Positions 19,788 through 32,972 of a stretch of DNA of 64,000 nt are shown here, piece after piece. Under the pieces are notes generated by a model. It did not search any database and was not told where the DNA came from. It worked only from the letters and a program-made list of their open reading frames with translations. The number at the start of each line of letters is the position of its first letter. Position 1 is the first letter of the stretch. Position numbers and translations under genes: made by a program. Source of the DNA: a virus; IMG/VR virus record IMGVR_UViG_3300042559_000515, positions 19,631 through 83,630 of that record; one strand, given 5' to 3'.

Positions 19788-20057
19788 TCAGCGCCGCCTG
19801 TTTCGCTGTTCTGCATTTGCTTGACGAGTCTGGATACCCAACTTACGGGCGACCGCTACCTCACGATGGAACTGCTCTGGGTTGTGTTGTGCCATCCGTG
19901 ACATGTGTTGCCAGTGTGTACGGTCCATGTTCCAGCCCGTAGCCGCCTCTACACCTTCTTTTAGGAGTCCAAAGCCAATCCTCTTGGGGTGTTTTTGCAA
20001 CTCATTGGAAATAATGTTCTTATTTTCCTGGTGTTCTTCGTCAGAAATCTTTGCCAT
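19788..20057 (-). CDS. hypothetical protein
   Basis: MAKISDEEHQ... preceded by AGGAG; start re-called within ORF 19788-20096. Confidence 0.6.
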   Translation of the reverse strand: MAKISDEEHQENKNIISNELQKHPKRIGFGLLKEGVEAATGWNMDRTHWQHMSRMAQHNPEQFHREVAVARKLGIQTRQANAEQRNRRR

Positions 20058-20061
20058 AGCC

Positions 20062-20388
20062 TTAACTCCTCTTTTGAGTCCAGTGTTCACCTGCACGGTG
20101 CTGATTAATGACTCCTACACCGTCCTTGTGGGTGGCAACATCTTCCAAAATGTCTCCAGAGGGGCTGAAAACGCTACGAAGACCACCAACTGGGGTGTGT
20201 TCTAGTCCATAACCGTCTACTGCAACGAATCCAACACCCCATTTAGCGTCAGAATCGGCTTCATAAGGGGAAAGACCTGCATCATGGAGCACATCATGAC
20301 CAATAAAGCGTTCTCCAGCGACCGTCATCTTCTCACGGCGGTGTGCAGACTTCAGTAATGCGTTGAATTGGTCGGGGTTAAGTGCCAT
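20062..20388 (-). CDS. hypothetical protein with N-terminal LNPDQF tag
   Basis: 108 aa; leaderless-type TAAACT-N6-ATG. Confidence 0.65.
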   Translation of the reverse strand: MALNPDQFNALLKSAHRREKMTVAGERFIGHDVLHDAGLSPYEADSDAKWGVGFVAVDGYGLEHTPVGGLRSVFSPSGDILEDVATHKDGVGVINQHRAGEHWTQKRS

Positions 20389-20397
20389 TTACCTAGT

Positions 20398-20589
20398 TTA
20401 CTTCAAGATTCCCCATGTGGGATTAGGTTGGAACCTGATGTCATTGGACTCAAAATGCTTGACAATACCCGACTCAAGCACGACAACCCAGCAGGTGTTA
20501 GCGCCCCAGCCATAATCAATGAGTAAAAGTGCTACCCCATCACCGAGAGGGGTAGAAACCTCTAGTGGCTGTTGGAATTCGTGAATCAA
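20398..20589 (-). CDS. hypothetical protein
   Basis: 63 aa; STPLGDGVALLLIDYG..NTCWVV. Confidence 0.6.
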   Translation of the reverse strand: MIHEFQQPLEVSTPLGDGVALLLIDYGWGANTCWVVVLESGIVKHFESNDIRFQPNPTWGILK

Positions 20590-20997
20590 TTAGTCTCGTT
20601 CGTGGAGATAGGTCTCATCTTCACGATGCACATGTGCGGGAAGGCGTTCCGACTGCGCCTCTGGGTCGTTCACAGCCTCTTTGTAGGTCACAGGGACCAT
20701 CCATGAGGGGTCAATGTCATGTGCGGCGGCAATACGGTGTGCACCATTGACAATACTGGTCTGACCACGGCTCCTGCCAAGACGAATGGGGTTGACCATC
20801 CCCTCTTTACGCAGGCTCGTATGCAGTCCTGACTTATATGCTTCATCGCTTTTGCGATTCCAGAATAATTCTTCAGAAGGATGACCAGACCTAGTGACAT
20901 CTTTTGTGGTCATTTCAAGGTCTGAGCCTTCAAGTTCTTCACGGAGCATGCTGGCTGGCATAAAGAGTTGTTCGTTGAGGTGATGCCAAGTAGCCAT
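20590..20997 (-). CDS. ParB/Srx-like protein (paralog 4)
   Basis: LHTSLRKEGMVNPI..IVNGAHRIAAA; TATACT-N6-ATG. Confidence 0.75.
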   Translation of the reverse strand: MATWHHLNEQLFMPASMLREELEGSDLEMTTKDVTRSGHPSEELFWNRKSDEAYKSGLHTSLRKEGMVNPIRLGRSRGQTSIVNGAHRIAAAHDIDPSWMVPVTYKEAVNDPEAQSERLPAHVHREDETYLHERD

Positions 20998-21110
20998 CTA
21001 TCCAGTATAGGGCTATCTAGGTGTGCAGGTGATTGTCCCGATTCCTGGTTAGGGCTATGTGGTGCGTGGGTGGTTTAGGGCTTAGTCGGTCCTACCCCCC
21101 ACCCTGTCCG

Positions 21111-21140
21111 AGGGTACCACTTAACCATGGGGGGTGTCAA
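21111..21140 (-). promoter_or_regulatory. leftward sigma-A-type promoter
   Basis: Minus strand reads TTGACA-N18-TACCCT. Confidence 0.5.
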
Positions 21141-21150
21141 GCCCTGAGCA

Positions 21151-21223
21151 TATGACATTCGTCACATGTGCCCATCGTCACACCCCCGACCATGTGACCT
21201 TCGTCACAGTGACCTTTGTCACA
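21151..21223. promoter_or_regulatory. four CRP/GlxR-like palindromes (TGTGA-N6-TCACA)
   Basis: TATGACATTCGTCACA at 21151, TGTGCCCATCGTCACA at 21167, TGTGACCTTCGTCACA at 21193 (perfect consensus), AGTGACCTTTGTCACA at 21208. Confidence 0.7.
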
Positions 21224-21245
21224 CCCCGTTTACTTGACATCCAGG

Positions 21246-21588
21246 AAACCCTTACACCGCAAGGGTTTGCGGGGTACTCATCATAGTTCCCCCCCAATGT
21301 CAACCCCCCCTACTCCCCAGTAAACCCTTATGGCATAAGGGAATCCTCTCAGACGCTCTCTAAGCCCCTCTACCCATGAGTAACCCCCTCTAGGCACCTA
21401 GCACCCATTTTGCGCATTTAAACGGCTCTACGGCGATTCTGCATGTTTATGCAGGGCTTCAAATACCCCTGATTTCATTGACTATTTGAAGATTGAGCCT
21501 GTCAAAAACACCAATGAAAACGGGCTTTTTGGTTTTGACATCGCAGATATTCCATACATCCCATGAAACCCTTGAGCCATAAGGATTT
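21246..21588. repeat. three imperfect AAACCCTT-N7-AAGG(G/A) palindromes
   Basis: 21246 AAACCCTTACACCGCAAGGGTTT; 21322 AAACCCTTATGGCATAAGGGAAT; 21566 AAACCCTTGAGCCATAAGGATTT. Confidence 0.65.
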
Positions 21589-21924
21589 GCGCCCATTTGG
21601 CACATATTTCATACAGAAAATGATGCATGAACATGCACTACAACTGGGGCTATGGAATCAGGGGCACACACAAGGGGGCGAGGGGGGCAGGTATTCCCCA
21701 CACCTCCGATGCCCAAGGCACAATCCCGATGCCCCAGCACACCCCTGAGCCTCCAGCACCTACTCCCCCCTCAGACCACACAGAAGAGCCTTCAGAGCGT
21801 TCAAATACCCTCTCTGCCACCTGCATACCCTCCCCCTGTCTTCCCCCTATCAGAGGCTCTCCCAGCACGGTTTGGGCGCCCTTTTCCTCACCCCCCTATC
21901 CCTCGGAGCCTTGCCATATATGGG

Positions 21925-21988
21925 CAAAAAAAGAATCAGAAAAAACATTTGAAAACTATTGACATTCCGAAATGCCCTCTGCGAGACT
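21925..21988 (+). promoter_or_regulatory. strong early promoter with A-rich UP element
   Basis: A-tracts at 21926-21957, TTGACA at 21959-21964, 18-nt spacer, then GAGACT. Confidence 0.65.
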
Positions 21989-21996
21989 GGGGGTGA

Positions 21997-22031
21997 GGGG
22001 CGCTTCGGCGCCTCGCTCTTTGAAAACTGAA
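21997..22031 (+). promoter_or_regulatory. boxB-like hairpin plus boxA-like antitermination element
   Basis: GGGGCGC-TTCG-GCGCCTC immediately followed by GCTCTTTGAAAACTGAA. A second copy, CCTTGAAAATTGAAGATT, lies at about 22160. Confidence 0.6.
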
Positions 22032-22710
22032 GATTCCGCCGTGTTCTTGATGGCTGGGCTTTGCCCATTCCATAGCGCCCTGTTCCTGTCCTGCCCTAAG
22101 TCCTTGGGCATTGCAGTTCAGATTCAGTTGCCTCCACGGTTCATGGAATCCAGTCAGTCCCTTGAAAATTGAAGATTCTCCGCCAGCAGAGCAAACGCTC
22201 GCCACGCTGGTTTACGGTCAGAGCACTTGACCCAGTTCATACGAAGCCCTTGGCAGGGTGAGAATCAATCAGATATGCGCCACGGTCGGCAAGGGGTGGC
22301 AACCCCTCCCCAGTCAGACCGTGGTTATTGCGAACTAGCAGGTTCTGTGAACCTCCTCGGCTCCGCTAAGTCCACTCGGTGGATACTGGCGGATGACCCA
22401 CTGACGCTAAGTCCAACGCTGACACTGCATTGTGTTGACCCCATAGTGGGTCACTTGCTCCAAGGAGCCTTTGCAGGACAGGCAATGGTAATGCGAATCG
22501 GATGGAGGGTTCCGTTCATCAAGGTCACCACTTCGGTGTGTGCGCCAATTACGAACGAGGGCAGGTGTCAAGGGATTGGCACGACACACAGAACAGAGGC
22601 TCTGCGGAGAAGGACTCAACTAGCACCGACTACACGGCACACGGTTCGCAACCCACACCAGTTGACGCTCAAGGTCAGTTGGAAAGCATCAGCACATGGT
22701 GTGGGGTCGC
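22032..22710 (+). ncRNA. candidate large structured leader/ncRNA
   Basis: No credible CDS between the promoter and the first RBS; many stems (CCACGGTC/GACCGTGG, GACCCACT/AGTGGGTC, CCCACACCA/TGGTGTGGG); three copies of CTAAGTCC. Confidence 0.5.
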
Positions 22711-22711
22711 A

Positions 22712-22792
22712 ACGGTGTCGGGGGGTTCGCCCCTCGGCTCCGTGCCACTGGCACATCGCAAGGTGTGCTGGTGGGACGGATAATCCGTTCCC
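22712..22792 (+). promoter_or_regulatory. overlapping three-hairpin RNA element, copy 1
   Basis: Hairpin A (TTCG loop); long stem B, TCCGTGCCACTGGCACATC-GCAA-GGTGTGCTGGTGGGACGGA; hairpin C, GGGACGGA-TAA-TCCGTTCCC. Confidence 0.65.
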
Positions 22793-22814
22793 TCTACCAA
22801 AGGAGCACCACACA

Positions 22815-23276
22815 ATGGCACTTAATGTTGATTGGGGAAACACCCCCGTTTATAAAGAGTTCCTCGCCACCACCCCTGATGGCGACTTCACTGACTCCAA
22901 CGGCTACCCACGCTTCCCTATCGGTGACCTCATGTTCAGCATGATGATTGTCCAGCAGGGTCGCATCTCTGAGAAGAACGCCCACAAGGTGTTCGCTCGC
23001 CTGTCGCTTTACCTTGAAGCGATGGTCGGTGGTTCATTCTCACGAGTGTGGGATGGCGAGAAGGTCATTGAAGAACGACTCAGCCCTGAGCACATCAAGC
23101 GTGCGATGGGCTTGCGAGTCAATGTGTCCGATGAGTCCGATACCAGTTGGGTGCAGTACTTCTTGCGTCTTGTAAAGCGTGAGAATGCTGAGCCTGTTGC
23201 TGGCATGACCGAATGGACAACGGCGAATATCAAGCGCCACCTTGCGAAGTACGAGGTTGACTACCTCGCCTCGTAA
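22815..23276 (+). CDS. early hypothetical protein
   Basis: AAGGAGCACCACACAATG RBS; starts MALNVDWG. The ORF-track extension to 22227 is rejected. Confidence 0.8.
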   Translation: MALNVDWGNTPVYKEFLATTPDGDFTDSNGYPRFPIGDLMFSMMIVQQGRISEKNAHKVFARLSLYLEAMVGGSFSRVWDGEKVIEERLSPEHIKRAMGLRVNVSDESDTSWVQYFLRLVKRENAEPVAGMTEWTTANIKRHLAKYEVDYLAS

Positions 23277-23294
23277 GTCACACCCACTACCAAA

Positions 23295-23366
23295 GGCATC
23301 AGCGCTTCGGCGCTGGTGTCCTCACTGTGCATCGGCTTCGGTCGGTGCATGGTGAGGACATTGTCC
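23295..23366 (+). promoter_or_regulatory. three-hairpin RNA element, copy 2
   Basis: GGCATCAGCGC-TTCG-GCGCTGGTGTC; TGTCCTCACTGTGCATCGGC-TTCG-GTCGGTGCATGGTGAGGACA; GGAC-ATT-GTCC. Confidence 0.75.
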
Positions 23367-23388
23367 ACAACACAAGGAGCACCACACA

Positions 23389-23754
23389 ATGAAAGCAACC
23401 GACCCTGAGTTTGCAGGAATGCACCACGATGAAATCTTGAAGCACTTTGCAGGCATCAAGGCAAGCATCAAGAAAATGGGGGGCGTGACAGTCCCTCCAA
23501 CACGCCAGCAGGTTGAGTGGGACAGCGTCCCTCTCATTCACGAAGACGCAACAATCGGTCATGTTGTCAAAGACATCCGAATTGACAGCGTTGGTCATGT
23601 CGGCATCGTTGATGATGTGAGCGTCATCACGAAGCGTGACGGACGCACAGCAGTTGTTGTGTCGTTCCGATTCGTCAACCACACAACGCTCAACCAATCC
23701 CGTACCGACATCAGAACTCGCAAGGTTGAGTTCATCCTCAACAACAACCAATAG
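23389..23754 (+). CDS. early hypothetical protein
   Basis: Same AAGGAGCACCACACAATG RBS as the gene at 22815. Confidence 0.75.
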   Translation: MKATDPEFAGMHHDEILKHFAGIKASIKKMGGVTVPPTRQQVEWDSVPLIHEDATIGHVVKDIRIDSVGHVGIVDDVSVITKRDGRTAVVVSFRFVNHTTLNQSRTDIRTRKVEFILNNNQ

Positions 23755-23762
23755 GAGCACCA

Positions 23763-24047
23763 ATGACAACACCTAAGACATACCCAACCTTCACTGACCC
23801 TGACGGCGTCCTACAGCCGTTCAAGGGTATGACCACGGGGCGCCATGCGAAGCGTGTCGTCTCGTACTGGCGCAAGGATGCGAGTGAGCCGTGGAAACGC
23901 TTCGGTAACTCCGTGAGCGTTGACGCCATGGACAAGCGCATGCGTCACATTGAAAAGCAAGGATGGAAGATTCGTTACTCCATCATTGACATGGACAACC
24001 AACTCACCATCAAACAAATTGAAACCATCAACAAGGAGAACAAATAA
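23763..24047 (+). CDS. early hypothetical protein
   Basis: AGGAG RBS. Confidence 0.7.
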   Translation: MTTPKTYPTFTDPDGVLQPFKGMTTGRHAKRVVSYWRKDASEPWKRFGNSVSVDAMDKRMRHIEKQGWKIRYSIIDMDNQLTIKQIETINKENK

Positions 24048-24376
24048 TGAGCACATCAACCAACACACGCCACCCACTGACCATCTCGTACACCCTCATG
24101 GTGAGCGAGGAATTGCTGGACAACCTCAAGTCGCATGACGGCACCCGTTACTGGGTGCTGGGCGAATACGAAGTCCACACTGACTTTGAGGGTGAGACCT
24201 ACATCACCGACAACGGTCACCGCTTCAACTACGACACTGAGACCGCACTGCGTGGCATCGCACTGTGGATTCAGAACGGTGGTGACTGGGACGAACTCAA
24301 AGACTTGTCCACCGACCACTACGACCACGATGCCATTTGGCAGTACGGGTTCTTCGGTGAACTTGTCTACGGCTAA
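24047..24376 (+). CDS. early hypothetical protein
   Basis: TAATG coupling; C-terminal DHDAIWQYGFFGELVYG, a recurrent phage motif. Confidence 0.75.
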   Translation: MSTSTNTRHPLTISYTLMVSEELLDNLKSHDGTRYWVLGEYEVHTDFEGETYITDNGHRFNYDTETALRGIALWIQNGGDWDELKDLSTDHYDHDAIWQYGFFGELVYG

Positions 24377-24422
24377 CCCATTGACCACCTACAACAACAA
24401 CACCAACCAACAAGGAGCAATC

Positions 24423-25367
24423 ATGACCACATCAGTAACCGAGGTGCAGAGCACCCTTTCAACCTTCCAGCCTCGTGACCGCAAGTACGACTTGCGCACC
24501 GCCGAGGGCAAGTACTTCAAGCGCCTCAACTCGTACAACAGTGAGTACACAGTGACCACTGGCGTTGTCATCGTCCCTGAGGAGCGTGGCTACGGCGACA
24601 CTGCCACCGTCATTGATGTGACCTACGATGCCATCCATCTTGTGCGCACCGTTGATGTTGACAGCGACCTCGTTGAGACCTACCTCAAGGGCAAGTTGCA
24701 GTACGACTGGCAGTCTCGTGACCGCAAGAAGGCATCGTTCATTGTCGTCAACGAGGCGCTCTTCCAAGAGAGTTGGTCGGGCGGTCGCTGGGTGCATGTT
24801 GACTACTCCGTGTGGTCGCTTGAAGAGGGTGGCGAGGTAGTTGCCACCACTGGCACCAGCGACACTGACCATTACGAGACCTCACGCATTGTTGCTAAGG
24901 CGCTCGGTAATCGTGTGTTTGAGATGAACTCGGACATCCAAGCCAATGAAGCACGCAAGGCACAGGCTGACGAGCATGCACGCAAGGTTGCCGATGTCTT
25001 GTCAGCGTTCGTGCCGTCCTACTCCTACGAGCGTTCGCTTGCCGAAGCCACCAAGTTCATTGAGCGTGGTGTGAAGGAGTCAGAGGGTGAGAACAGTCAC
25101 TGGCACAATCATGTGCATGTCGCCATTGACATTGAGGTGATGAAACTCTGTAAGCGATATGTACAGATTCTCGGTGCGACCACCGACACTGTCCGCATTG
25201 CGTTCAACTCGTACAGCGGTGACATCAAGGTCGTTGATGAGCACATGGCATACGCCACGGTCATCGCAGAGCGCACTGGTGGTGGCTGGTCAAGCAACGA
25301 CTTCTCAGGAGCGTTGCTGGGTCAGGTACTTCACCGCTTCACCAAGATTGTCTGCCAGCACATCTAG
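24423..25367 (+). CDS. early hypothetical protein
   Basis: AAGGAG RBS before ATG 24423 (MTTSVTEVQ). Confidence 0.75.
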   Translation: MTTSVTEVQSTLSTFQPRDRKYDLRTAEGKYFKRLNSYNSEYTVTTGVVIVPEERGYGDTATVIDVTYDAIHLVRTVDVDSDLVETYLKGKLQYDWQSRDRKKASFIVVNEALFQESWSGGRWVHVDYSVWSLEEGGEVVATTGTSDTDHYETSRIVAKALGNRVFEMNSDIQANEARKAQADEHARKVADVLSAFVPSYSYERSLAEATKFIERGVKESEGENSHWHNHVHVAIDIEVMKLCKRYVQILGATTDTVRIAFNSYSGDIKVVDEHMAYATVIAERTGGGWSSNDFSGALLGQVLHRFTKIVCQHI

Positions 25368-25386
25368 TCACGACAACATCCCCCAA

Positions 25387-25473
25387 GGCATCACAGGCTC
25401 CCCCAGCCTGTGGTGTCCTCACAGGACATCGGCACTCCCCCAAGTGTCGGTGTCTTGTGAGGGCATACAGCCC
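25387..25473 (+). promoter_or_regulatory. three-hairpin RNA element, copy 3
   Basis: GGCATCACAGGCT..AGCCTGTGGTGTC; TGTCCTCACAGGACATCGGCACT..AGTGTCGGTGTCTTGTGAGGGCA; GGGC-ATACA-GCCC. Confidence 0.75.
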
Positions 25474-25499
25474 AGCACCACTATCAACAGGAGAATCCA

Positions 25500-26045
25500 A
25501 TGGGCGTTTATCAATACGCAATTACAAAGACCAAGCGAATCAAGGGACTGTCCGATGTCTTCGGTGACATCGGTGTGGTTGAGTTCCGCTACAGGTACTC
25601 GTGGTCACCGAACGAGAAGTTTGAGAAGTACTGCGCTCGCCTTGACGCCAATATTGAGCGCAAGTGGGCAGGCACTGAGTTGCCGATTCTTGTGACCGAC
25701 AAGAAGGGCAGGGGCTTGTCAGTGTGGGTCGGTGACAGTGCGAACTGGTGTGACGGTGACAGCAAGGGTGGCGAGATGCCAATCGGCTCATCGCAGGGCT
25801 GGGATGCCTTGTGGCACTGGGCAGAACGCAATGGTCGTTTGGAGATTCCACTGTGGTTGATGACCGCTGGCGACTTTGAGCACAGCCAAGAGATTCCATT
25901 CGTCCCGACTACTGAGAAGGCATACCGAGAACTGGTGGACGCCTGCTCCACTCTCCGCCTCCGTCAGCGTGGCGACAGCAACGCTCAGCCACAGATTCCG
26001 AACAACCGCTACTGGGTCAACAATGACCTCTACACATACCTTTAA
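25500..26045 (+). CDS. early hypothetical protein
   Basis: AGGAG RBS. Confidence 0.7.
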   Translation: MGVYQYAITKTKRIKGLSDVFGDIGVVEFRYRYSWSPNEKFEKYCARLDANIERKWAGTELPILVTDKKGRGLSVWVGDSANWCDGDSKGGEMPIGSSQGWDALWHWAERNGRLEIPLWLMTAGDFEHSQEIPFVPTTEKAYRELVDACSTLRLRQRGDSNAQPQIPNNRYWVNNDLYTYL

Positions 26046-26055
26046 GGAGAACCCA

Positions 26056-26352
26056 ATGACCATCAAGCAATACACAGTCACAATGTCCAGCACGCACTTC
26101 GTGCTTGCCGAATCCATATCGCAAGCGGAGAGCATCGTGTACGAGGCACTGCTTCGTCTCTCCAAGGTGGACGAGCGTGTCCCCGACAGTGAGGTGGACT
26201 GGTTCCACGCAGTCACCCTTGAGGACGGGCACTACTCAACCATCGTGCGAGACGGTGACGAGATGAGTGACTACGACAGGAAAGTCCAACGATTGAAGCG
26301 AGTGCGAGAACTCGTTGAGAAGGTCTGCAACGAAGAGATGGAGAAGAACTAA
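26056..26352 (+). CDS. early hypothetical protein
   Basis: TAAGGAG RBS before ATG 26056. Confidence 0.7.
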   Translation: MTIKQYTVTMSSTHFVLAESISQAESIVYEALLRLSKVDERVPDSEVDWFHAVTLEDGHYSTIVRDGDEMSDYDRKVQRLKRVRELVEKVCNEEMEKN

Positions 26353-26654
26353 TGACCACAATCACAGTTACATGGAAGGCGTTTGCGGACTCACTGACCT
26401 TTAAGGAGAAGGTCACATCGGCAACCATTAAGACCAACCGCATTCAAGGTGATGGCATCGCCATCGCTGAGGTGGTGTTCCGTGACACCAACCTCTACCA
26501 AGGCGTGCTGTGGGACTTGCTGGAGCCTGTCCTGCCTGAGAACCGAACACACACAGCACTGAGTGTTGGTGACGAGGTGACCGTTGACGGTCGCACTTAC
26601 CAATGCGCCAGTATCGGCTGGGTGGAACTCACCTTTGACGCAGTCAACCAATAA
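26352..26654 (+). CDS. hypothetical protein (YodL-like 'SLSVGD' motif)
   Basis: HTALSVGDEVTVDGRTYQCASIGW. Confidence 0.65.
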   Translation: MTTITVTWKAFADSLTFKEKVTSATIKTNRIQGDGIAIAEVVFRDTNLYQGVLWDLLEPVLPENRTHTALSVGDEVTVDGRTYQCASIGWVELTFDAVNQ

Positions 26655-26684
26655 ACAACCAGTTCTAGTAAAGGAGAACAAAAA

Positions 26685-27404
26685 ATGTCAGCCACCACCA
26701 TCACCCCCCGTCAGCAGTCATTTATTCGCTCACTCTTAGAGGAGCGTCTTGATGTACTGGAAATCACCAACCTTGACGAGTACATCGTCTCGGTCGGTCT
26801 CAACGCACTCACAGCGAACTCTGCGAGCAAACTCATTGAGCATCTCAAGTCGGTGCCTGTGGGCAAGAAGTCAGAGCATGCGCACTTGCCCGAAGGTCGG
26901 GTCATCGTCAACAAGTTCGCCAAGGAGTGCACGCTCTGTGGTGGCTTGGTGGACAGCGGTGCTGGTCATGCAGTGCAGACTGCTAATGGCTGGCGGACAT
27001 TCCATGCGATGGACAAGTGCAGTGCACCAGCCGATGCTCCACGCATCACGGTTGAGTCCAAGCGTGCGTATCGCTGTGACGATGGCACTGTCGCTATCGC
27101 CTACACCACACAGAACGGTCGCATTGCGATGCGCCGTCTTGTGATTCACGAGGACAACAAGGGTTCTCTTGAGTACTGGAAGGGCGGTGTCGCCATCGTG
27201 AGCGCCACTGGCTCGCTCCTTACGCAGGAGCAGGCATCCGAACTCGGCAAGGTGTACGGGTTCTGCATCTGCTGTGGCAAGGACTTGAGTGAAGACCAGT
27301 CGCTTGCTGTCGGGTATGGCAGGACTTGTGCTGGCAACAATGAGTGGTGGTACCCATCACCCAGTGAAGCACGAGAGATTCTCAACCGACCAGTCAGTAT
27401 CTAG
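26685..27404 (+). CDS. DUF6011-family zinc-finger protein
   Basis: GFCICCGKDLSEDQSLAVGYGRTCA plus NKFAKECTLCG; lies directly upstream of an SNF2 helicase. Confidence 0.75.
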   Translation: MSATTITPRQQSFIRSLLEERLDVLEITNLDEYIVSVGLNALTANSASKLIEHLKSVPVGKKSEHAHLPEGRVIVNKFAKECTLCGGLVDSGAGHAVQTANGWRTFHAMDKCSAPADAPRITVESKRAYRCDDGTVAIAYTTQNGRIAMRRLVIHEDNKGSLEYWKGGVAIVSATGSLLTQEQASELGKVYGFCICCGKDLSEDQSLAVGYGRTCAGNNEWWYPSPSEAREILNRPVSI

Positions 27405-27421
27405 TTCAACCCATTAGTTGA

Positions 27422-27506
27422 GGGGACAGCACGAGCAACTGTTCGTGCCGTCCTCACTATCTATTCGCAATGTGTGAGTAGGTAGTGAGGGCGATATCAT
27501 CGCCCC
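27422..27506 (+). promoter_or_regulatory. three-hairpin RNA element, copy 4
   Basis: GGACAGCACGAGC-AACT-GTTCGTGCCGTCC; CGTCCTCACTATCTATTCGCA-ATG-TGTGAGTAGGTAGTGAGGGCG; GGGCGAT-ATC-ATCGCCC. Confidence 0.75.
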
Positions 27507-27536
27507 TGAGCACCCAACATAACCAAGGAGTATTCC

Positions 27537-29075
27537 ATGTCCCACCGTTCCGCACTTGATGCCCTGCTGTCCTCAGCAGTGCGTGTCCCCAAACCCATTG
27601 ATGTCTGCCCCGAACTCACAGCGCTGTCGGGTGCACATGACTATGACCTCGGCTTTGACCTGTCACTGCCATTACTCCCGTACCAGCGTGCTGGTGTGGC
27701 GTATGCGCTCAAGCAACGCCGTGTCATCCTCGGTGACGAGATGGGCTTGGGCAAGACCCCACAACTCATTGCCGTGGCTCTCAAGGCTGTTGAGGACGGT
27801 CACCGTGCACTCATCGTGGTGCCACCGTCACTGCGCCTCAACTGGGACAGAGAGATTGCCAAGTTCACCTCTCGCCGTCTCACCGTGGAGATTGCTGAGG
27901 GCACCACGCCCTACGCACTGCGCAAGTCTGATGTCGTCATCATCGGTGACGCCAGTGTGGTCGGCTGGGCGCCTGCGCTCAACCGTCTCAACTTCGGTGC
28001 ACTGTTAGTTGACGAGGCACACCGCTTCAAGAACCCCAAGGCAAAGCGCACCATCGCATTGCAGGGCATCGCTCGTGGCATTGATGCTGACGGGTATGTC
28101 GTGCTCGCTTCGGGTACGCCAGCAACCAACCGCCCCGTTGAGTTGGTCGCACTGCTTGACACCATCGGTCGCCTTGACCCTGTGTTCGGTTCTGCTGGTT
28201 CATTCAAGTGGCGCTACTGCGACCCGATTCGCAATGCGTTCGGCTGGACATTCAACGGTTCAACCAACAGTGCCGAGTTGCACGACAAGTTGCGTGGCAC
28301 TTGCTACATCCGCCGTAAGAAGGCTGATGTGCTCACCGAGTTGCCAGCCAAGCGCCGTGCTCAGGTTGCTATCGCTCTGACCGATGTGGAGTTGCGTGAG
28401 TACCTCCGCATTGAGTCTGACTTCCTCATGTGGGTGTACGGCAAGGGTGGTCGTGAGGCTGTCATGCGTGTGTCTCGTGCCGAGGCAATCACGCAGTTGA
28501 CCGCACTGCGACAGGAGATGGCAAAGGTCAAGGTCAAGCACGCCATTGAGCACATTGAGTCCATCGTTGAGGGTGACCAGCCAGTGGTCATCTTCGGACA
28601 TCACCGTGCGGTGCTTGAGTCCATCATCGCTGAGTGTGAGACACGCTCTGCTGAAGACCCACGATGGAATGTCGTGAGTGTTCTCGGTGGCAAGTCCGAT
28701 GCACAAAAGCAACAAGCAGTGGACGACTTCCAGTCGGGTCGTGCGAGCGTGTTCGTGGGCAACTACACCTCCGCTGGTGTCGGTCTCACACTCACTCGTG
28801 CCAACCAGTGGGTGAGCGTGGAGTTACCGTGGACACCTGCTGAACTACAGCAAGCCGAAGACCGATGCCACAGATTCACGCAAACAGAATCTGTGACTTG
28901 CTGGCACCTGACTGGTGCTCGTGCCAATGGTCAGTTGACCATTGACGACCGACTCTTCGGTCTGCTCAACAGCAAGGCGGAGGTTCTCTCCGCAGTGCTT
29001 GACGGCAACGCCGAAGACCTCGGTGCTGAGGCTGGCTCACTGCTCGCCTCGCTCCTTGGTGACTGGGTCGGCTAA
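27537..29075 (+). CDS. SNF2-family helicase (SMARCAL1/HARP-like)
   Basis: DEMGLGKT, DEAH, SGTPATNRP, GVGLTLT, QAEDRCHR. Confidence 0.93.
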   Translation: MSHRSALDALLSSAVRVPKPIDVCPELTALSGAHDYDLGFDLSLPLLPYQRAGVAYALKQRRVILGDEMGLGKTPQLIAVALKAVEDGHRALIVVPPSLRLNWDREIAKFTSRRLTVEIAEGTTPYALRKSDVVIIGDASVVGWAPALNRLNFGALLVDEAHRFKNPKAKRTIALQGIARGIDADGYVVLASGTPATNRPVELVALLDTIGRLDPVFGSAGSFKWRYCDPIRNAFGWTFNGSTNSAELHDKLRGTCYIRRKKADVLTELPAKRRAQVAIALTDVELREYLRIESDFLMWVYGKGGREAVMRVSRAEAITQLTALRQEMAKVKVKHAIEHIESIVEGDQPVVIFGHHRAVLESIIAECETRSAEDPRWNVVSVLGGKSDAQKQQAVDDFQSGRASVFVGNYTSAGVGLTLTRANQWVSVELPWTPAELQQAEDRCHRFTQTESVTCWHLTGARANGQLTIDDRLFGLLNSKAEVLSAVLDGNAEDLGAEAGSLLASLLGDWVG

Positions 29076-29095
29076 CACAATCTGAGGTGGTGCTC

Positions 29096-29181
29096 ACGGG
29101 CGTCACGAGGTGCGAGCCTCGTGGCGTGCCGTGGTCATTGTGGGGTCGGGACACTCCGCAGTGACCACGGGACGCAAGTCC
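29096..29181 (+). promoter_or_regulatory. three-hairpin RNA element, copy 5
   Basis: GCGTCACGAGG..CCTCGTGGCGT; GCGTGCCGTGGTCATTGTGGGGT..ACTCCGCAGTGACCACGGGACGC; GGAC-GCAA-GTCC. Confidence 0.7.
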
Positions 29182-29212
29182 AAACAGCACCAACACAACA
29201 AGGAATTAAACA

Positions 29213-29581
29213 ATGAAGACACAAGCAATCATCACTATCAACCATCCCGACAACCTGTCAGCGAACTGGGTTATCGCTGATGTCATTGACCCATTCATCG
29301 CTGATGTCAACACTGGTGGCAACGATGAATGGAATCTCGCCTTGGCGTTGTCACTGACCGAGACGCAACTGCGTGACAAGGCATTGCGCAGTGCGCTGTT
29401 GCTGGTTCTCAGTGACTTCCCTGCGGACATGAGCAACGAGTGGATTCTTGACGGCGTCCTCAATGATGACGAGCGCATCATTGTGTGGGAGCCGTTCTCC
29501 ATCGTCAACTGGGACAAAGAAGAACTGGTCGCTCACATTGAGCAGACAGCGGACACCATCTACAACACATACTTTCAATAA
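29213..29581 (+). CDS. early hypothetical protein
   Basis: AAGGA RBS; acidic protein. Confidence 0.7.
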   Translation: MKTQAIITINHPDNLSANWVIADVIDPFIADVNTGGNDEWNLALALSLTETQLRDKALRSALLLVLSDFPADMSNEWILDGVLNDDERIIVWEPFSIVNWDKEELVAHIEQTADTIYNTYFQ

Positions 29582-29592
29582 GGAGACAAACA

Positions 29593-29790
29593 ATGAAGAC
29601 AGAGACCATCAACAACATCCTGCTCGTACTACTGGGAATGGCACTTGCTCTTGGGAGTGTCATCTTGTGGGACACCGTGGACTACTACGCCAAGTGTGAT
29701 GCGGTCGTGGTGCAGGACATCAATGGCAATCGCTACTGCGTGGACAAGGCAACGCTCGTTGAGAGCACAACAACTAATTACAACAAGTAA
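29593..29790 (+). CDS. small membrane protein
   Basis: N-terminal TM helix; AAGGAG RBS. Confidence 0.65.
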   Translation: MKTETINNILLVLLGMALALGSVILWDTVDYYAKCDAVVVQDINGNRYCVDKATLVESTTTNYNK

Positions 29791-29800
29791 AGGACACATC

Positions 29801-30082
29801 ATGAACCCATACGAACAACCCGAACAACCAATCGGTTGCCAATGCAATGTCACCTTCGGTGGTCAAGAGATGGCAGTCATCATCGCATTCGGTGATGACC
29901 CAGTTATCACTGACGACATCGGCAACCCTTGGTATGACCTTGACATCAATGTCTTCTACTACCTCAACGATGCAGAGACAGACCAACTACACGATGCAGT
30001 CAACAAAGGCTTAGAGGGCTTTGCTGTTGACGGCGAAATTGAAATAGTCATTGACAGTGACTTTGAATACCTTTTTCTTTAA
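29801..30082 (+). CDS. early hypothetical protein
   Basis: AAGGA RBS before ATG 29801. Confidence 0.65.
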   Translation: MNPYEQPEQPIGCQCNVTFGGQEMAVIIAFGDDPVITDDIGNPWYDLDINVFYYLNDAETDQLHDAVNKGLEGFAVDGEIEIVIDSDFEYLFL

Positions 30083-30094
30083 GGAGCAACCAAC

Positions 30095-30415
30095 ATGAAC
30101 ATCACATCAGAACAAGAGCAGGCAGTAGACAACTGGGAGTACCAGTACCGACCCATCAAGAACCACATCAGTGGTGACCTTGGATGGAACGGCACCGTCT
30201 TTGAGACCTACGGAGACGACATTGCGTTCGTGGTTTCACAGCCACAAAACCTCATATGGACATGGGTAGACACCGACAATGGCACAACCATCCTCAGTGG
30301 TTACCACCTTGTCAATCGCATCGGTTACTTCGTGACCGAGTACCCATGGGTGAGACCAACCGAGGTGCAGGTAGAGACCTACACAGAAGAAGAAACAGAA
30401 GAGGAGCCGTTCTAA
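30095..30415 (+). CDS. conserved phage hypothetical protein
   Basis: FETYG..IWT..GYHLVNRIGYFVTE.PW motif. Confidence 0.75.
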   Translation: MNITSEQEQAVDNWEYQYRPIKNHISGDLGWNGTVFETYGDDIAFVVSQPQNLIWTWVDTDNGTTILSGYHLVNRIGYFVTEYPWVRPTEVQVETYTEEETEEEPF

Positions 30416-30639
30416 TGCAGAACATCAAGTTCGTTCAGAGTGTGACCATCTCGGTCACCTTTGACATGTCCTTTCCCAGCGACTGGACACTCCAGCAGAT
30501 TCTGGAGAGCATCAAGGACACCACCACTGATATCAGTGCACATGTCCTGCCCGAAACACTTCCACAAGGTGCAGTAAGTAACAGCACCATTGTGGATGAC
30601 ATCATTATCAACCACACCGCCATACAGGAGAACAACTAA
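30415..30639 (+). CDS. early hypothetical protein
   Basis: TAATG coupling; GAGGAG RBS. Confidence 0.6.
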   Translation: MQNIKFVQSVTISVTFDMSFPSDWTLQQILESIKDTTTDISAHVLPETLPQGAVSNSTIVDDIIINHTAIQENN

Positions 30640-31052
30640 TGACCGCAACAACCGCCAGTGACTTCCAAGTCACGCTCGCATACATCCAACAGAACATTGA
30701 TGCCATCGCTGAGTTTGCTCAGCAGTTCCTCAATGAGAACTACTTTGAAGACGATGATGTCTTCCACTCATACGGAGACCGTGTTGACCTCAACTTCATC
30801 CGAGATGAAGATGACAACAAGTGGAGGTGCTTTGCATACCCAGTGGTCAACGGTGACCCCTCCTATGACTACGAGGTAGCCATCCCAGTGGACACCGATA
30901 CCTACAAGGTTGTGCGGTTCTACAAAGACATCAGCCGTGCCAACAAGGTCATCCTGACTGGACTTACCTTGCAGGACGCAAAGGAACACTGCAAGCGTGA
31001 TGACACGCACAGTGACGACTGGTTTGACGGATACGAAAAGGAAAGCAAGTAA
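30639..31052 (+). CDS. early hypothetical protein
   Basis: YKVVRFY..GLTLQDAKEHC..DT..WFDGY C-terminal motif. Confidence 0.7.
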   Translation: MTATTASDFQVTLAYIQQNIDAIAEFAQQFLNENYFEDDDVFHSYGDRVDLNFIRDEDDNKWRCFAYPVVNGDPSYDYEVAIPVDTDTYKVVRFYKDISRANKVILTGLTLQDAKEHCKRDDTHSDDWFDGYEKESK

Positions 31053-31243
31053 TGGAAACACAAGTCAGCAAGCAATCACTGGACACCATCGTTGATGCTC
31101 TGTTCCTCTACATGAAGTGGAACGAGGGATTCTCAAAGGTGGCTATCACACAGAACGACTACGAAGCATCAGCACGACACATCATCAACGCAAACAACGC
31201 AGAGCGAGCAATCGCAGAACTCAAACAACAAGGAGACAAATAA
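31052..31243 (+). CDS. early hypothetical protein
   Basis: TAATG coupling at both ends. Confidence 0.6.
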   Translation: METQVSKQSLDTIVDALFLYMKWNEGFSKVAITQNDYEASARHIINANNAERAIAELKQQGDK

Positions 31244-31416
31244 TGAACCCTGAGAAATACCATTGGTTCGCAGAAGACGGTTCCTATGGCAGTGGTGTCA
31301 CCCTCGTGGTGGACACCAGCAACTGGACGGATGAAGACTGGCGAGACATTGAAGACACATCAGACAGCGAGCGCTCCACAGTGGCGCTTGAGATAACCAA
31401 GAAGAGAAAGGGGTAG
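31243..31416 (+). CDS. early hypothetical protein
   Basis: AAGGAG RBS; MNPEKYHWFAEDGSYG. Confidence 0.6.
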   Translation: MNPEKYHWFAEDGSYGSGVTLVVDTSNWTDEDWRDIEDTSDSERSTVALEITKKRKG

Positions 31417-31419
31417 GTC

Positions 31420-31653
31420 ATGCCCACCACATCACCAGCGACTTACTACAAGGAATCCATCAGCAATGCGTTTGGCTCCCTCGTAGGCAAAACAGTATTG
31501 CGAGTGCGTCCGTTCGTACCGAGCGAGTATGAGATGTTTGGGTGGTCAGAAGGTCACGCATTCCTCATTGAGTTTGACGACAACACCTTGCTCATTCCCG
31601 TATCAGATGAAGAGTGCAACAGCGCAGGCTGGCTGTACATTGACGAACTCTAA
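31420..31653 (+). CDS. early hypothetical protein
   Basis: LVGKTV..GW..DEECNSAG. Confidence 0.65.
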   Translation: MPTTSPATYYKESISNAFGSLVGKTVLRVRPFVPSEYEMFGWSEGHAFLIEFDDNTLLIPVSDEECNSAGWLYIDEL

Positions 31654-31670
31654 AAGAAAGAACAACAAAT

Positions 31671-32219
31671 ATGAACACCAATCTTTGCAGTAACTGCAAG
31701 ACCGAACTCAACGAAGATTCCATGCGCTGGTCAAGCGTCCTCAGCGGAGAAATCTGTGAGGGTTGCTTTGACGAAGACATGACTTACCCAGCGACCATCC
31801 GTATCGTTAACCCGAACGGTGATGTGGAGACCTACCTTGTCGGTGACCTCAACATCATTACCGAGTACGGAGACGATACAGACCTCCCTGCCAAGCGTCA
31901 GTGGGTCAGCACCGATGGCTGGCGTGGCTATAACAAGACAGAGATTGATGGCTGGGTAGCAGTACTCACTGGATGGACAACGGGTGGCTATGACGACCCC
32001 ATCGCTCGTAGGAAGCGCCTGTTCAACAACTTTGCTGAGTACCTGCTAACCAATGACATCTACCCACCATGTCAGGTTGCCTTGATTACCGACACCACAT
32101 CCAACCTGTTTTCAACCGCAGTGACCGTTCAGGTTCTTGCAAAGGATGAGGACACATTCAACAACTGGCTGAACTCAACCGAGTACCCAGCCGAAGAACT
32201 ATCACACTCATTGTCTTAG
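31671..32219 (+). CDS. early hypothetical protein with zinc finger
   Basis: CSNC..CEGC; WVSTDGWRGY. Confidence 0.7.
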   Translation: MNTNLCSNCKTELNEDSMRWSSVLSGEICEGCFDEDMTYPATIRIVNPNGDVETYLVGDLNIITEYGDDTDLPAKRQWVSTDGWRGYNKTEIDGWVAVLTGWTTGGYDDPIARRKRLFNNFAEYLLTNDIYPPCQVALITDTTSNLFSTAVTVQVLAKDEDTFNNWLNSTEYPAEELSHSLS

Positions 32220-32231
32220 AAAGGAGACACC

Positions 32232-32483
32232 ATGACCACCATTATCCGTAACTATCAGAAAGATGAACTCATCTCTGATGCACAGGACATCTACACCAAC
32301 TACACCTTTGAGGAACTTGATGGTGCGGTGTTCTTGACCAGTTGTGACATCACAGGCGCTGAGATTTACCACCTGACCAACGACAAGGTTGCTTGGATTC
32401 AATCCATTGACCTTGACTGGGTCGCTCCGTATGACGAGCGTGTCCTTCGCACGACATCATTAGACACTGTGGAGGTCAAGTAG
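32232..32483 (+). CDS. early hypothetical protein
   Basis: AAGGAG RBS. Confidence 0.65.
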   Translation: MTTIIRNYQKDELISDAQDIYTNYTFEELDGAVFLTSCDITGAEIYHLTNDKVAWIQSIDLDWVAPYDERVLRTTSLDTVEVK

Positions 32484-32485
32484 CC

Positions 32486-32728
32486 ATGGCAACATTCAAG
32501 TTCAAAGTTCAGTGGGACATAGAGGTAGACATAGACGCCATTGATGAAGACGAGGCATACGAAATCATCTATGGCGATGTCCTCCTTGATGCCTACGGCA
32601 GGGGCAAAGGCTCCCTCAGTGTTGACCTCGTAGAAGACATTGAAAAAAGTGAATGGGGTTTGTTTGATACCGACCCCGAAGAAGAACCAATTACCTACCT
32701 CGCTCTTAATGACGAGGATTACCTCTAA
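32486..32728 (+). CDS. early acidic hypothetical protein
   Basis: GGAGG RBS. Confidence 0.65.
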   Translation: MATFKFKVQWDIEVDIDAIDEDEAYEIIYGDVLLDAYGRGKGSLSVDLVEDIEKSEWGLFDTDPEEEPITYLALNDEDYL

Positions 32729-32738
32729 GGAGAACCCA

Positions 32739-32972
32739 ATGATTAACCAACTACCGTTCTGGTGCCGTTCATGCGAAGCGGACTTCAACAACTTTGATGA
32801 GCAGGGAGTGTGTGGCAAGTGTGACACACCAAATGTTCTTGAGCGCCACAACATCACAGTGACCATTCCAGTAGACGCCTTCTCACTGCTTGACGCTCAA
32901 GCAAATGTAGAGGCTCTCATCAAGCAATTAATCAAACAGCAAATCGTCTCTCCAGAGACAACAGTGTTCTAA
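32739..32972 (+). CDS. small zinc-ribbon protein
   Basis: TAAGGAG RBS; CRSC..CGKC. Confidence 0.6.
   Translation: MINQLPFWCRSCEADFNNFDEQGVCGKCDTPNVLERHNITVTIPVDAFSLLDAQANVEALIKQLIKQQIVSPETTVF

What the first reader, a model, noticed from the sequence alone, without database searches (positions are those of the whole stretch)
22712..29181. Five copies of an overlapping three-hairpin RNA element punctuating the early operon
Seen at 22712, 23295, 25387, 27422 and 29096, in each sizeable intergenic gap of 22.7-29.2 kb and just before an SD. Each has hairpin A, a long stem B of about 19-24 bp, and a short hairpin C. The base of B shares nucleotides with both A and C, so full B competes with A plus C. 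Sequences differ but pairing is kept, with many G-U pairs and UUCG/GCAA loops; three copies keep GTCCTCAC...GTGAGG, and none has a U tract. Established: T7 early mRNA is cut by RNase III at intergenic stems of similar length, and HK022 put RNAs are twin-hairpin antiterminators. Inference: a processing cassette in which cleavage of B frees A to cap the upstream 3' end and C to cap the downstream 5' end; alternatively a conformational switch or antiterminator. This is the strongest undescribed cis-RNA system in the window.
Basis: partly seen in the sequence, partly recalled or inferred. Interest (0 to 1): 0.85.

Follow-up and report, generated by a model that had tools for sequence, protein, structure and literature searches.

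The report
Three-hairpin RNA punctuation between phage genes
A lake-water phage of actinobacteria separates its early genes with a conserved, undescribed three-hairpin RNA element whose two-turn central helix looks made to be cut by host RNase III, and which also marks the joints where gene cassettes are swapped between related phages.

Summary
Four gaps of the + strand operon (23293-23376, 25385-25481, 27423-27509, 29097-29190) carry one RNA family. The copy at 22712-22797 has the same layout, but its middle stem is only 13 bp and it scores marginally.

A covariance model found 5-9 same-strand copies, in one 5-9 kb cluster, in each of five related IMG/VR phage records. Patterns found the motif in 19 contigs. 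It found none in SNF2-helicase relatives at 45-49% identity, GenBank phages, the bacterial stretches tested, or Rfam.

Over 30 distinct copies, 96.9% of cells pair and 21 of 28 pairs show compensatory change. G-U outnumbers A-C 111 to 6, so the sense RNA is what is selected. Helix B is 20-22 rungs in 29 of 30 copies. Its base can pair instead into hairpins A and C, and the two folds are isoenergetic.

The best reading is a host RNase III "cut, refold, cap" signal (about 0.5, inferred, no RNA data). The elements also sit at cassette-shuffling breakpoints.

The scan had already noted this family in a sister 97-kb phage (e1-5990655, e1-6022451). I found no paper describing it.

The parts
22712..22797 (+). 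E1, a divergent look-alike at the end of the long leader. A is 22712-22743, B is 22745-22774 (13 bp, GCAA loop), C is 22774-22790. The start codon is at 22815.
   Evidence: Fold z -4.69. Stem of 13 bp. R1 gives 16.5 bits, E 1.4e-3, filters off. In L002 the same 13-bp stem is kept with changed letters but encloses about 100 extra nt.
23293..23376 (+). E2, type I. A-full is 23295-23320 (11 bp, UUCG loop), B-long is 23314-23363 (23 bp, UUCG loop), C is 23356-23366. The upstream stop codon ends at 23276 and the start codon is at 23389.
   Evidence: R1 gives 76.6 bits on the sense strand and 24.0 bits antisense. Fold z -4.98. Stem length.
25385..25481 (+). E3, type I. A-full is 25387-25417 (13 bp), B-long is 25413-25466 (24 bp), C is 25461-25473. 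The upstream stop codon ends at 25367 and the start codon is at 25500.
   Evidence: R1 gives 67.8 bits on the sense strand and 16.6 bits antisense. Fold z -6.89. Stem length.
27423..27509 (+). E4, type I variant. The A core is 27429-27448 (8 bp), B-long is 27449-27493 (21 bp), C is 27489-27505 (7 bp). The upstream stop codon ends at 27404 and the SNF2 helicase starts at 27537.
   Evidence: R1 gives 69.9 bits on the sense strand and 21.9 bits antisense. Fold z -7.52. In L002 the orthologous copy has a wholly different A sequence that still forms a hairpin.
29097..29190 (+). E5, type II. A is 29100-29127 (12 bp). B is 29129-29170 (18 bp), extendable to 29124-29175 across one G.G mismatch. C is 29170-29181 (GCAA loop). 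The helicase stop codon ends at 29075 and the next start codon is at 29213.
   Evidence: R1 (built from type I copies only) gives 25.3 bits, E 3.3e-6. Fold z -7.09. It has the same flanks (GCGTCAC....GTGGCGTG, GACGCAAGTCC) as the type II copies of L058, L061, L066 and L067.

Best explanation
The elements are cis-acting signals in the early polycistronic mRNA of an actinobacterial phage. Each fills the gap between a stop codon and the next ribosome-binding site.

The central helix B is held at about two A-form turns (21-22 rungs). It is most likely a substrate of the host's RNase III, which would cut the long transcript into cassette-sized messages.

The lowest 4-5 pairs of B use nucleotides that can pair instead with the 5' flank, extending hairpin A to about one turn, or with the 3' flank, forming hairpin C. 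After a cut in B, the upstream product can therefore refold into a 3'-terminal hairpin A, and the downstream product into a hairpin C near its 5' end. These would act as caps against 3' exonucleases and 5'-end-dependent RNases, and would give each downstream gene a standard leader.

What is shown: the structure, its strand, the length constraint, the two conserved alternative pairings, and the position.

What is inferred: cleavage, the enzyme, the cut site and the capping effect.

A side effect, or second role, operates at the DNA level. The repeated elements are the places where gene cassettes are exchanged or reordered between related phages, presumably by homologous recombination.
For: Structure and strand:
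- RNAalifold on 16 copies gives 28 pairs, 18 of them with compensatory changes.
- On 30 distinct copies (39 hits), 96.9% of 831 cells pair and 21 of 28 pairs change on both sides. 0 of 500 shuffles reach this, and slid controls pair only 29-48%.
- Of the 831 cells, 111 are G-U and 6 are A-C.
- Sense scores are 68-85 bits against 16-33 bits antisense.

Length:
- B has 20 rungs in 4 copies, 21 in 18, 22 in 7 and 24 in 1.
- A has 9-12 rungs in 26 of 30 copies.
- The passages of PMC3867540 that I read describe an idealized substrate of 22 bp, a minimum of about 11 bp, and five processing signals in the T7 early precursor.

Two folds:
- Column 36 covaries with column 6 (AU 19, GC 9) and with column 102 (UA 20, CG 10).
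- The energy difference between the folds is +0.18 +/- 1.15 kcal/mol, and 29 of 30 copies lie within 2 kcal/mol.
- Hairpin C is present in 30 of 30 copies and starts inside B's 3' arm.

Position:
- 42 of 42 sense copies in six phage records are followed by an SD and a start codon 9-35 nt after the model's end.
- The previous stop codon lies a median of 12 nt before the model's start, over 38 copies.

Other points:
- No T-run or promoter-like site lies in the five gaps, while the operon's own end at 35600-35635 does have a hairpin plus T-run.
- No RNase III gene is found in the window's record or in four related records, three of them 99-100% complete, so any such enzyme would be the host's.
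- Two WhiB genes point to an actinobacterial host.
Against: - There is no RNA evidence at all. No RNA run holds the phage, so no processed ends are known.
- T7-type signals have an internal loop that gives a single cut. B here is uninterrupted or has at most 2 mismatches, so the cleavage pattern would differ.
- RNase III needs little sequence. Yet B is nearly identical between two phage clades whose helicases are only 52% identical. That would fit a sequence-specific binder, or recent spread, at least as well.
- The 'cut, refold, cap' model does not by itself require the two folds to be isoenergetic before cleavage.
- The length statistic comes from hits selected with a model that has 21 B pairs, so it is biased towards that length.
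- The covariation counts are made on an alignment fitted to the model, and many copies are related paralogues in about four subtypes.
Confidence: 0.5

Rival explanations
1. The element is an operator for a sequence-specific RNA-binding protein of the phage or the host. The protein would set translation or stability of the downstream gene without RNase III cleavage, and binding would select one of the two folds.
For: Stem sequences are conserved far beyond what pairing needs: GCAUCA, GUGGUGUCCUCAC, GUGCAU and GUGAGGGCAU are invariant across clades whose helicases share 52% identity. G-U pairs are conserved at fixed rungs (columns 46/92 in 23 of 30 copies). The two folds are isoenergetic. Every copy sits just before a start codon.
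Against: No RNA-binding or nuclease domain was found in the cassette proteins tested: 20 proteins against Pfam and 10 against PHROGs gave only DUFs, SNF2 and unknowns. The SD is 15-40 nt away from C and is not sequestered in the window's copies. At least four sequence subtypes keep the shape but not the letters.
Confidence: 0.15
2. The element is a passive structural insulator. The folded block fills the untranslated gap to keep Rho or RNases off the message and to uncouple neighbouring cistrons, with no cleavage.
For: The elements occupy almost the whole gap from stop codon to SD. The short spacer left before the SD is C/A-rich and G-poor.
Against: A filler would not need a helix fixed at 20-22 rungs, a conserved alternative pairing, or conserved stem letters.
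Confidence: 0.1
3. The elements are hairpin-only (U-tract-less) terminators, attenuators or pause sites that grade transcription along the operon. They might be overridden by an rrn-like antitermination signal in the leader.
For: The host is probably actinobacterial, and U-tract-less terminators have been proposed for that group (introduction of PMC3993855, passages read). An actinophage phiC31 early-region report is recalled only and was not read. Clusters of hairpins have been proposed to terminate transcription (PMC8355165, abstract only). The leader has two boxA-like repeats after a hairpin.
Against: Purified mycobacterial RNA polymerase did not terminate at sites lacking a U-tract, even with NusA and NusG (PMC3993855, abstract and passages). 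The phage uses a canonical hairpin plus T-run at the operon's end. Stems of 21-24 bp with conserved A and C are not terminator-like. The boxA-like motif is only partly kept in the closest relative, L002.
Confidence: 0.08
4. The primary function is at the DNA level. The elements would be recombination sites (attC-like folded single strands, or PeSL-like homology patches) that make the early genes swappable cassettes, and the RNA fold would be incidental.
For: Gene order differs between relatives exactly at the elements. 52 of 109 homology-block ends lie at elements, against 14.6% expected. A lake-metagenome contig joins 23372 to 25498, removing the E2-E3 cassette, and another joint starts at 29181. 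The same element is followed by three different genes in L061, L066 and L067.
Against: No tyrosine recombinase is found in five records, three of them complete. The ratio of 111 G-U to 6 A-C and the tight link to the next start codon point to selection on the transcript. B has no extrahelical bases. No promoter is present. Any intergenic spacer would attract some block ends, so the enrichment is inflated. A UvsX-like recombinase makes plain homologous exchange at any repeat sufficient.
Confidence: 0.07
5. The elements are put-like, cis-acting antiterminator RNAs that modify the transcribing polymerase.
For: There are two adjacent hairpins with no linker, on the nascent transcript of an early operon.
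Against: There are 5-9 copies per operon, spread between genes rather than one next to the promoter. No terminators lie downstream for them to override inside the cluster. There is no Rfam match. put features are recalled, not tested against a model.
Confidence: 0.04

Closest known systems
RNase III processing signals between the early genes of phage T7 (R0.3, R0.5, R1, R1.1, R1.3)
   Same: Several hairpins of about two helical turns lie in the gaps of one long early transcript. Copies within a genome share sequence. Cutting is thought to leave protective hairpins at 3' ends (PMC3867540, passages read).
   Different: T7 signals carry an internal loop and are cut once. Here B is a regular helix. 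Separate hairpins A and C share B's basal nucleotides, so protection would come from a refold. There is no sequence relation, the host is different (actinobacterial), and cleavage is untested.
Bs-RNase III sites of Bacillus phages SP82/SPO1
   Same: Both are repeated intercistronic hairpins in early host-takeover operons. Earlier scan notes file several uncultured phages' hairpins under this family.
   Different: The family model finds nothing in the SPO1 terminal redundancy: the best hit is 12.8 bits, E 0.017, at an unrelated place. SPO1 gaps hold 7-9 bp hairpins with a CUCAGUACCWAGA flank next to promoters and terminators. That flank is absent from the elements, with 4 chance-level matches elsewhere in the window.
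PeSL (promoter-early stem-loop) cassettes of T4-type phages
   Same: Both are small repeated regulatory cassettes with stem-loops in plastic early regions rich in ORFans. Both serve as points of exchange that shuffle genes (abstracts of PMC2839356 and PMC4122927).
   Different: PeSLs are a sigma-70 promoter plus a terminator stem-loop. Here there is no promoter-like site and no T-run. The conserved feature is an RNA fold with covariation.
Integron attC sites, and attC clusters without integrase in phages
   Same: Both are oriented hairpins with a conserved base and a variable top at the boundary of each promoterless cassette, and cassettes are reordered between relatives.
   Different: No tyrosine recombinase is present. 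There are no extrahelical bases.
tRNA punctuation of mitochondrial polycistronic transcripts
   Same: Folded RNAs between cistrons act as processing marks.
   Different: There is no tRNA-like fold (ARAGORN found 0 genes), and a different enzyme is expected.

Membership tests
Phage early-transcript RNase III processing signals (T7 type) | Several copies in intercistronic gaps of one polycistronic early transcript, on the sense strand | tested here: met
   Four or five copies in the window and 5-9 in each of five related records, all on one strand and in one cluster. 42 of 42 copies precede a start codon.
Phage early-transcript RNase III processing signals (T7 type) | Double-helical element of about two turns (about 20-22 bp) | tested here: met
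   B has 20-22 rungs in 29 of 30 distinct copies. The reference length of 22 bp comes from PMC3867540.
Phage early-transcript RNase III processing signals (T7 type) | Internal loop or bulge at the scissile site, giving single-strand cleavage | tested here: not met
   B has 0 mismatches in 13 of 30 copies, 1 in 12 and 2 in 5, and no internal loop.
Phage early-transcript RNase III processing signals (T7 type) | Cleaved by RNase III in vivo or in vitro | not testable with these tools
   No RNA run was listed. This needs bench work.
SP82/SPO1-type Bs-RNase III sites | Sequence and structure similarity to the sites in the SPO1 terminal redundancy | tested here: not met
   R1 with filters off on SPO1 1-16000 gives a best hit of 12.8 bits, E 0.017. 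The folds differ. The flank motif is absent from the elements. The reverse test, an SPO1 model run on this window, was not done.
PeSL cassettes | Strong sigma-70-like early promoter inside the cassette | tested here: not met
   0 of 10 promoter-like sites in 20000-36500 fall in the five gaps, and the total equals the shuffle expectation of 10.3.
PeSL cassettes | Stem-loop that is an effective terminator | tested here: not met
   None of the 18 terminator-like sites found by the scan (hairpin plus T-run) lies at an element. Termination itself was not assayed.
PeSL cassettes | Sits at recombination joints of shuffled accessory genes | tested here: met
Integron attC | Tyrosine recombinase (IntI) in the element or genome | tested here: not met
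   PF00589 is absent from the window's record and four relatives, three of them 99-100% complete. Controls are positive in 14 of 14 genomes. Integrase-less clusters exist, so this alone is not decisive.
Integron attC | Imperfect hairpin with extrahelical bases and the conserved core at its base | tested here: not met
   B is regular. Its base reads GUGUCCUCAC...GUGAGGGCAU, not the core quoted.
Intrinsic terminators | U-tract directly after the hairpin | tested here: not met
HK022 put RNA | Single promoter-proximal two-hairpin RNA per operon arm that makes polymerase terminator-resistant | tested here: not met
   Copy number and placement do not fit. Activity is not testable here. put features are recalled.
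Any Rfam 15 family | Score at or above the gathering threshold | tested here: not met
   0 matches in the whole window. The relaxed search of 21900-29300 gives only mir-187, at 24.6 bits against a threshold of 58.

The most novel reading that the evidence does not exclude
The element is a self-contained, bistable 'cut, refold, cap' RNA module that is also the unit boundary of a gene-cassette system. The same about 85-nt sequence would define message ends at the RNA level, and at the DNA level would provide the homology at which early-gene cassettes are swapped among freshwater actinophages. The balance between its two isoenergetic folds may be set by the ribosome that terminates just upstream. 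In one subtype the stop codon lies inside hairpin A. Processing of each joint would then report whether the preceding gene was translated.
Probability: 0.2. Interest if true: 0.8.

Novelty: new variant of a known kind. Interest (0 to 1): 0.62.

Why it matters
Intercistronic RNase III signals are textbook for T7 and for SP82/SPO1, but nothing comparable has been described for phages of actinobacteria. None of my six literature searches found this motif.

This family has features the classical sites lack:
- a regular helix of fixed two-turn length;
- a conserved, energetically balanced alternative fold that would cap both products;
- a clear role as the joint of cassette shuffling.

It offers three uses:
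- a compact natural 'insulator' part for polycistronic expression in actinobacteria;
- a clean test case for how RNase III substrates and mRNA end protection co-evolve;
- an explanation for how ORFan early genes are exchanged in abundant lake phages.

The covariance model also gives annotators a marker for early operons in this group of phages.

Tried and rejected
- **RNA evidence.** The look-up of sequencing runs listed 20 holders in 17 studies, all lake-water or metagenome DNA contigs. No RNA holder was listed, so expression and ends could not be examined.
- **Read laying.** Four DNA runs gave contig joints only. Most of the 12 joints listed lie inside genes with unknown letters between them, and I do not use those.
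- **Rfam.** Nothing at the gathering thresholds. With E up to 1, only a sub-threshold mir-187 look-alike appears.
- **tRNA-like reading.** ARAGORN found 0 genes.
- **Phage-encoded RNase III or tyrosine integrase.** None found.
- **SPO1/SP82 membership**, suggested by earlier notes. Not supported for this family. The RefSeq and GenBank SPO1 records held here carry no processing-site features, so I compared with folds of SPO1 gaps rather than with mapped sites.
- **GenBank phages.**
  - megablast of 22000-30000 found nothing.
  - blastn of E2 gave four chance-level partial hits.
  - blastn of 4.8 kb of the sister cluster gave one 84-nt hit inside a mycobacteriophage gene.
  - R1 scored the 120 stretches at 37 bits or less, and several of them similarly on both strands.
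  - The two I read are perfect palindromic repeats of Bacteroidota without A or C.
  - They are not family members, and the host could not be found this way.
- **More distant helicase relatives** (45-49% identity).
  - There are no R1 hits.
  - There are no + strand stems of 18 bp or more. Only two of 15 bp occur in 17 loci.
  - Eight of these loci were scanned with 70-nt windows, and none has a strong fold beside the helicase gene.
- **boxA-like leader motif** as support for antitermination. It is present twice in the window but matched by my regular expression in none of the other five clusters, and only partly kept in L002.
- **Cassette proteins.** Pfam and PHROGs gave only DUF6011, DUF2786/DUF7168, SNF2 and unknowns.
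- **Not done.** I did not build a second model that includes hairpin C and all subtypes. I did not scan metagenome contigs. Supplementary files of papers were not opened.

Full report
**Setting.** The window is bases 19631-83630 of an 83,630-bp IMG/VR virus record, 89% complete. Lake-water metagenomes hold it.

It encodes a family A DNA polymerase, a DnaB-type helicase, a UvsX-like recombinase and a DpdA-like transglycosylase. It also has two WhiB-family genes. Among 14 control genomes that family rings only in Corynebacterium, so the host is most likely an actinobacterium. The nearest cultured polymerase relatives are Streptomyces phages at about 33% identity.

A + strand operon starts at 22815, after about 1.8 kb without convincing genes. 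It runs to a canonical hairpin plus T-run at 35600-35635.

**The observation.** A sixth, 46-nt gap is unstructured.

I scanned the whole genome on both strands for uninterrupted stems of 12 bp or more, G-U allowed. There are 15 on the + strand and 10 on the - strand. The only four of 18 bp or more are the B stems of the gaps at 23.3, 25.4, 27.4 and 29.1 kb (23, 24, 21 and 18 bp). The stem at 22745-22774 has 13 bp.

Each B is preceded without a linker by a GC-rich hairpin A and followed by a short hairpin C. The outer pairs of B reuse nucleotides of A's 3' arm and C's 5' arm. No promoter-like or terminator-like site from the consensus scan falls in these gaps.

**Relatives.** The SNF2 helicase (27537-29075) led to 55 IMG/VR loci. 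Only L002 is close (84% identity), and it has matching elements in the corresponding gaps.

- In the copy before the helicase gene, hairpin A has an entirely different sequence in L002 but is still a hairpin.
- A pattern taken from the A/B and B/C junctions found 13 IMG/VR stretches, all true homologues.
- A second pattern, for the subtype of the fifth copy, added 6 more contigs.

That makes 19 IMG/VR contigs besides the window's own record.

**The model and its hits.** A MAFFT alignment of 16 copies gave a consensus of 28 pairs, 18 with compensatory changes. I built model R1 from it.

Over 45 sources (534,947 bases) R1 hit only the window, L002 and the pattern-derived loci. It hit none of the more distant helicase relatives that were searched.

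In whole records the sense hits form one cluster on one strand:

| Record | Size | Sense hits | Position |
|---|---|---|---|
| G002 | 96.9 kb | 8 | 41940-50296 |
| G003 | 97.1 kb | 9 | 25844-34996 |
| G004 | 95.0 kb | 7 | 20111-27691 |
| G005 | partial record | 9 | not tabulated |
| L002's record | partial record | 5 | not tabulated |

In the window's own genome nothing lies outside 22.7-29.2 kb. With filters off, the window's scores are 76.6, 69.9, 67.8 and 25.3 bits, and 16.5 bits for the 22712 site. Antisense scores are 24.0, 21.9 and 16.6 bits.

**Is the structure selected, and on which molecule?** The evidence comes from the 39 best hits, which are 30 distinct sequences.

- 96.9% of 831 cells pair.
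- 21 of 28 pairs change on both sides (161 cells).
- 0 of 500 shuffles reach any of the five measures.
- Sliding the partners by 1-3 columns drops pairing to 29-48%.
- The cells are 694 Watson-Crick, 111 G-U, 6 A-C and 20 other.

That asymmetry, together with the sense/antisense score gap, shows the sense strand is what folds. Combined with the position, this means the transcript.

There are caveats. The alignment was fitted to the model. Copies are paralogues in about four subtypes, so events are fewer than cells.

**The two folds.** Extending A by columns 4-7 with 35-38 and shortening B pairs 94.3% of cells. Column 36 covaries both with column 6 (AU 19, GC 9, unpaired 2) and with column 102 (UA 20, CG 10).

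I folded each distinct copy with either set of pairs forced. The energies differ by +0.18 +/- 1.15 kcal/mol, and 29 of 30 copies are within 2 kcal/mol.

Hairpin C (4-7 bp, of several unrelated sequences) is found in 30 of 30 copies. It begins inside B's 3' arm. For 28 of 30 copies its z-score is below -1.5 against shuffles.

More divergent copies at the ends of the sister clusters keep the same A-B-C plan with different letters.

**Geometry.** Counted from its base, B has 20 rungs in 4 copies, 21 in 18, 22 in 7 and 24 in 1. A has 9-12 rungs in 26 of 30 copies. B carries 3.3 G-U pairs on average. This sample was selected with a 21-pair model.

The passages I read in the RNase III review PMC3867540 give the following:
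- an idealized substrate of 22 bp, two A-form turns;
- a minimum of about 11 bp;
- 3'-terminal hairpins left by single-strand cuts, which act as stability determinants;
- five signals in the T7 early precursor.

**Placement.** In six phage records, 42 of 42 sense copies are followed by an SD and the start of an ORF of at least 60 codons, 9-35 nt after the model's end. For 38 copies the previous stop codon lies -18 to +79 nt (median 12) before the model's start. In one subtype the stop codon is inside hairpin A. The first copy of each sister-clade cluster (G002-G005) ends a long leader.

The cassettes encode ORFans, DUF2786/DUF7168, DUF6011 and the SNF2 helicase. No nuclease or RNA-binding domain was seen. 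No RNase III gene is present in five records.

**Cassette joints.** Between the window and L002, the blocks downstream of the second and third elements are exchanged. Gene-family maps of six clusters show blocks reordered between elements, while [E]-helicase-[E] is constant.

Of 109 ends of blastn homology blocks inside the clusters, 52 lie within -20 to +70 nt of an element, against 14.6% expected. The ends are not independent, and spacers attract ends anyway.

A metagenome contig joins 23372 to 25498, and another joint starts at 29181.

The same element precedes three different genes in three contigs. B is almost identical between clades whose helicases share 52% identity.

There is no tyrosine recombinase. 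A UvsX-like recombinase is present.

**Interpretation.** The fixed two-turn helix, the intercistronic placement, the lack of a promoter or U-tract, and the conserved refold into a 3' hairpin and a 5'-proximal hairpin fit host RNase III processing best. I put this at about 0.5.

Every mechanistic step beyond the fold itself is inference.

Two points argue against it. The strong sequence conservation of the stems and the pre-cleavage energy balance are not explained by RNase III alone. They keep a specific binder or a switch in play.

Cassette exchange at the elements is shown as a pattern. I read it as a consequence of repeated sequence plus homologous recombination, and as a possible second role.

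**Comparison with what is known.**
- T7-type signals are the closest in principle but differ in anatomy.
- The SPO1/SP82 family named in earlier scan notes is not supported for this family.
- PeSLs share the shuffling role but not the promoter-terminator make-up.
- attC sites share the cassette logic but not the integrase, the shape or the strand signature.
- Rfam has no match, and GenBank phages hold nothing similar at blastn sensitivity.
- Six literature searches found no description.
- Earlier notes of this scan had seen the family in a sister 97-kb phage and reached a similar reading. Those notes are leads, not evidence.

Noticed in passing
window 20998-22814: About 1.8 kb without convincing genes lies between the divergent arms. 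A TTGACA at about 21960 is followed by a UUCG hairpin (21995-22014). Two copies of a boxA-like CTTGAAAAYTGAAGATTC motif follow at about 22018 and 22163, then several hundred nt of strongly folding sequence. Parts are 78-83% identical in L002, but the boxA-like letters are only partly kept there.
   Followed up: partly
window 35600-35635: A canonical 15-bp hairpin followed by a T-rich run ends the + strand operon, where it meets the - strand genes. The phage therefore does use ordinary intrinsic terminators.
   Followed up: no
window 34900-35097 (+) and 36886-37083 (-): Two WhiB-family genes (52.4 and 48.2 bits, above the cut-off) are a hallmark of actinobacteria and their phages.
   Followed up: partly
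L113 6255-6310 and 6438-6495; L129 2352-2412: Siphonobacter genomes carry a perfect palindromic repeat that happens to share TGGTGTCCTCAC...GTGAGGACACCA with the phage element but has no A or C hairpin. Pattern hits in Pedobacter, Mucilaginibacter and other Bacteroidota look the same in the hit list but were not read. It looks like a REP-like genomic repeat.
   Followed up: partly
L070, L071, L073 (e.g. L066 955-975): In the sister clade the SD (GAGGAGG) of many cassette genes sits in a small hairpin (ACCUGAGGAGGU). This is not seen in the window's clade, where the SD is AAGGAG in an unstructured C/A-rich spacer.
   Followed up: no
L002 1240-1345: In the closest relative, the 13-bp middle stem of the first (divergent) element encloses about 100 extra nucleotides that fold on their own. 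They are an insertion in the loop relative to the window.
   Followed up: no
window 7307-10654 (-), palindrome at 7837-7869: A 1115-codon ORF has collagen-like Gly-X-Y coding repeats. The repeats create a 15-bp perfect palindrome seen on both strands.
   Followed up: no
window 38230-39666 (-): A queuine tRNA-ribosyltransferase-like (DpdA-type) gene suggests 7-deazaguanine modification of the phage DNA.
   Followed up: no
L070 3785-3870; L071 6903-6987 (-); L072 3502-3587; L073 5204-5288: In one subtype the stop codon of the upstream gene lies 18 nt inside the model, in hairpin A. A terminating ribosome would therefore have to open A.
   Followed up: partly
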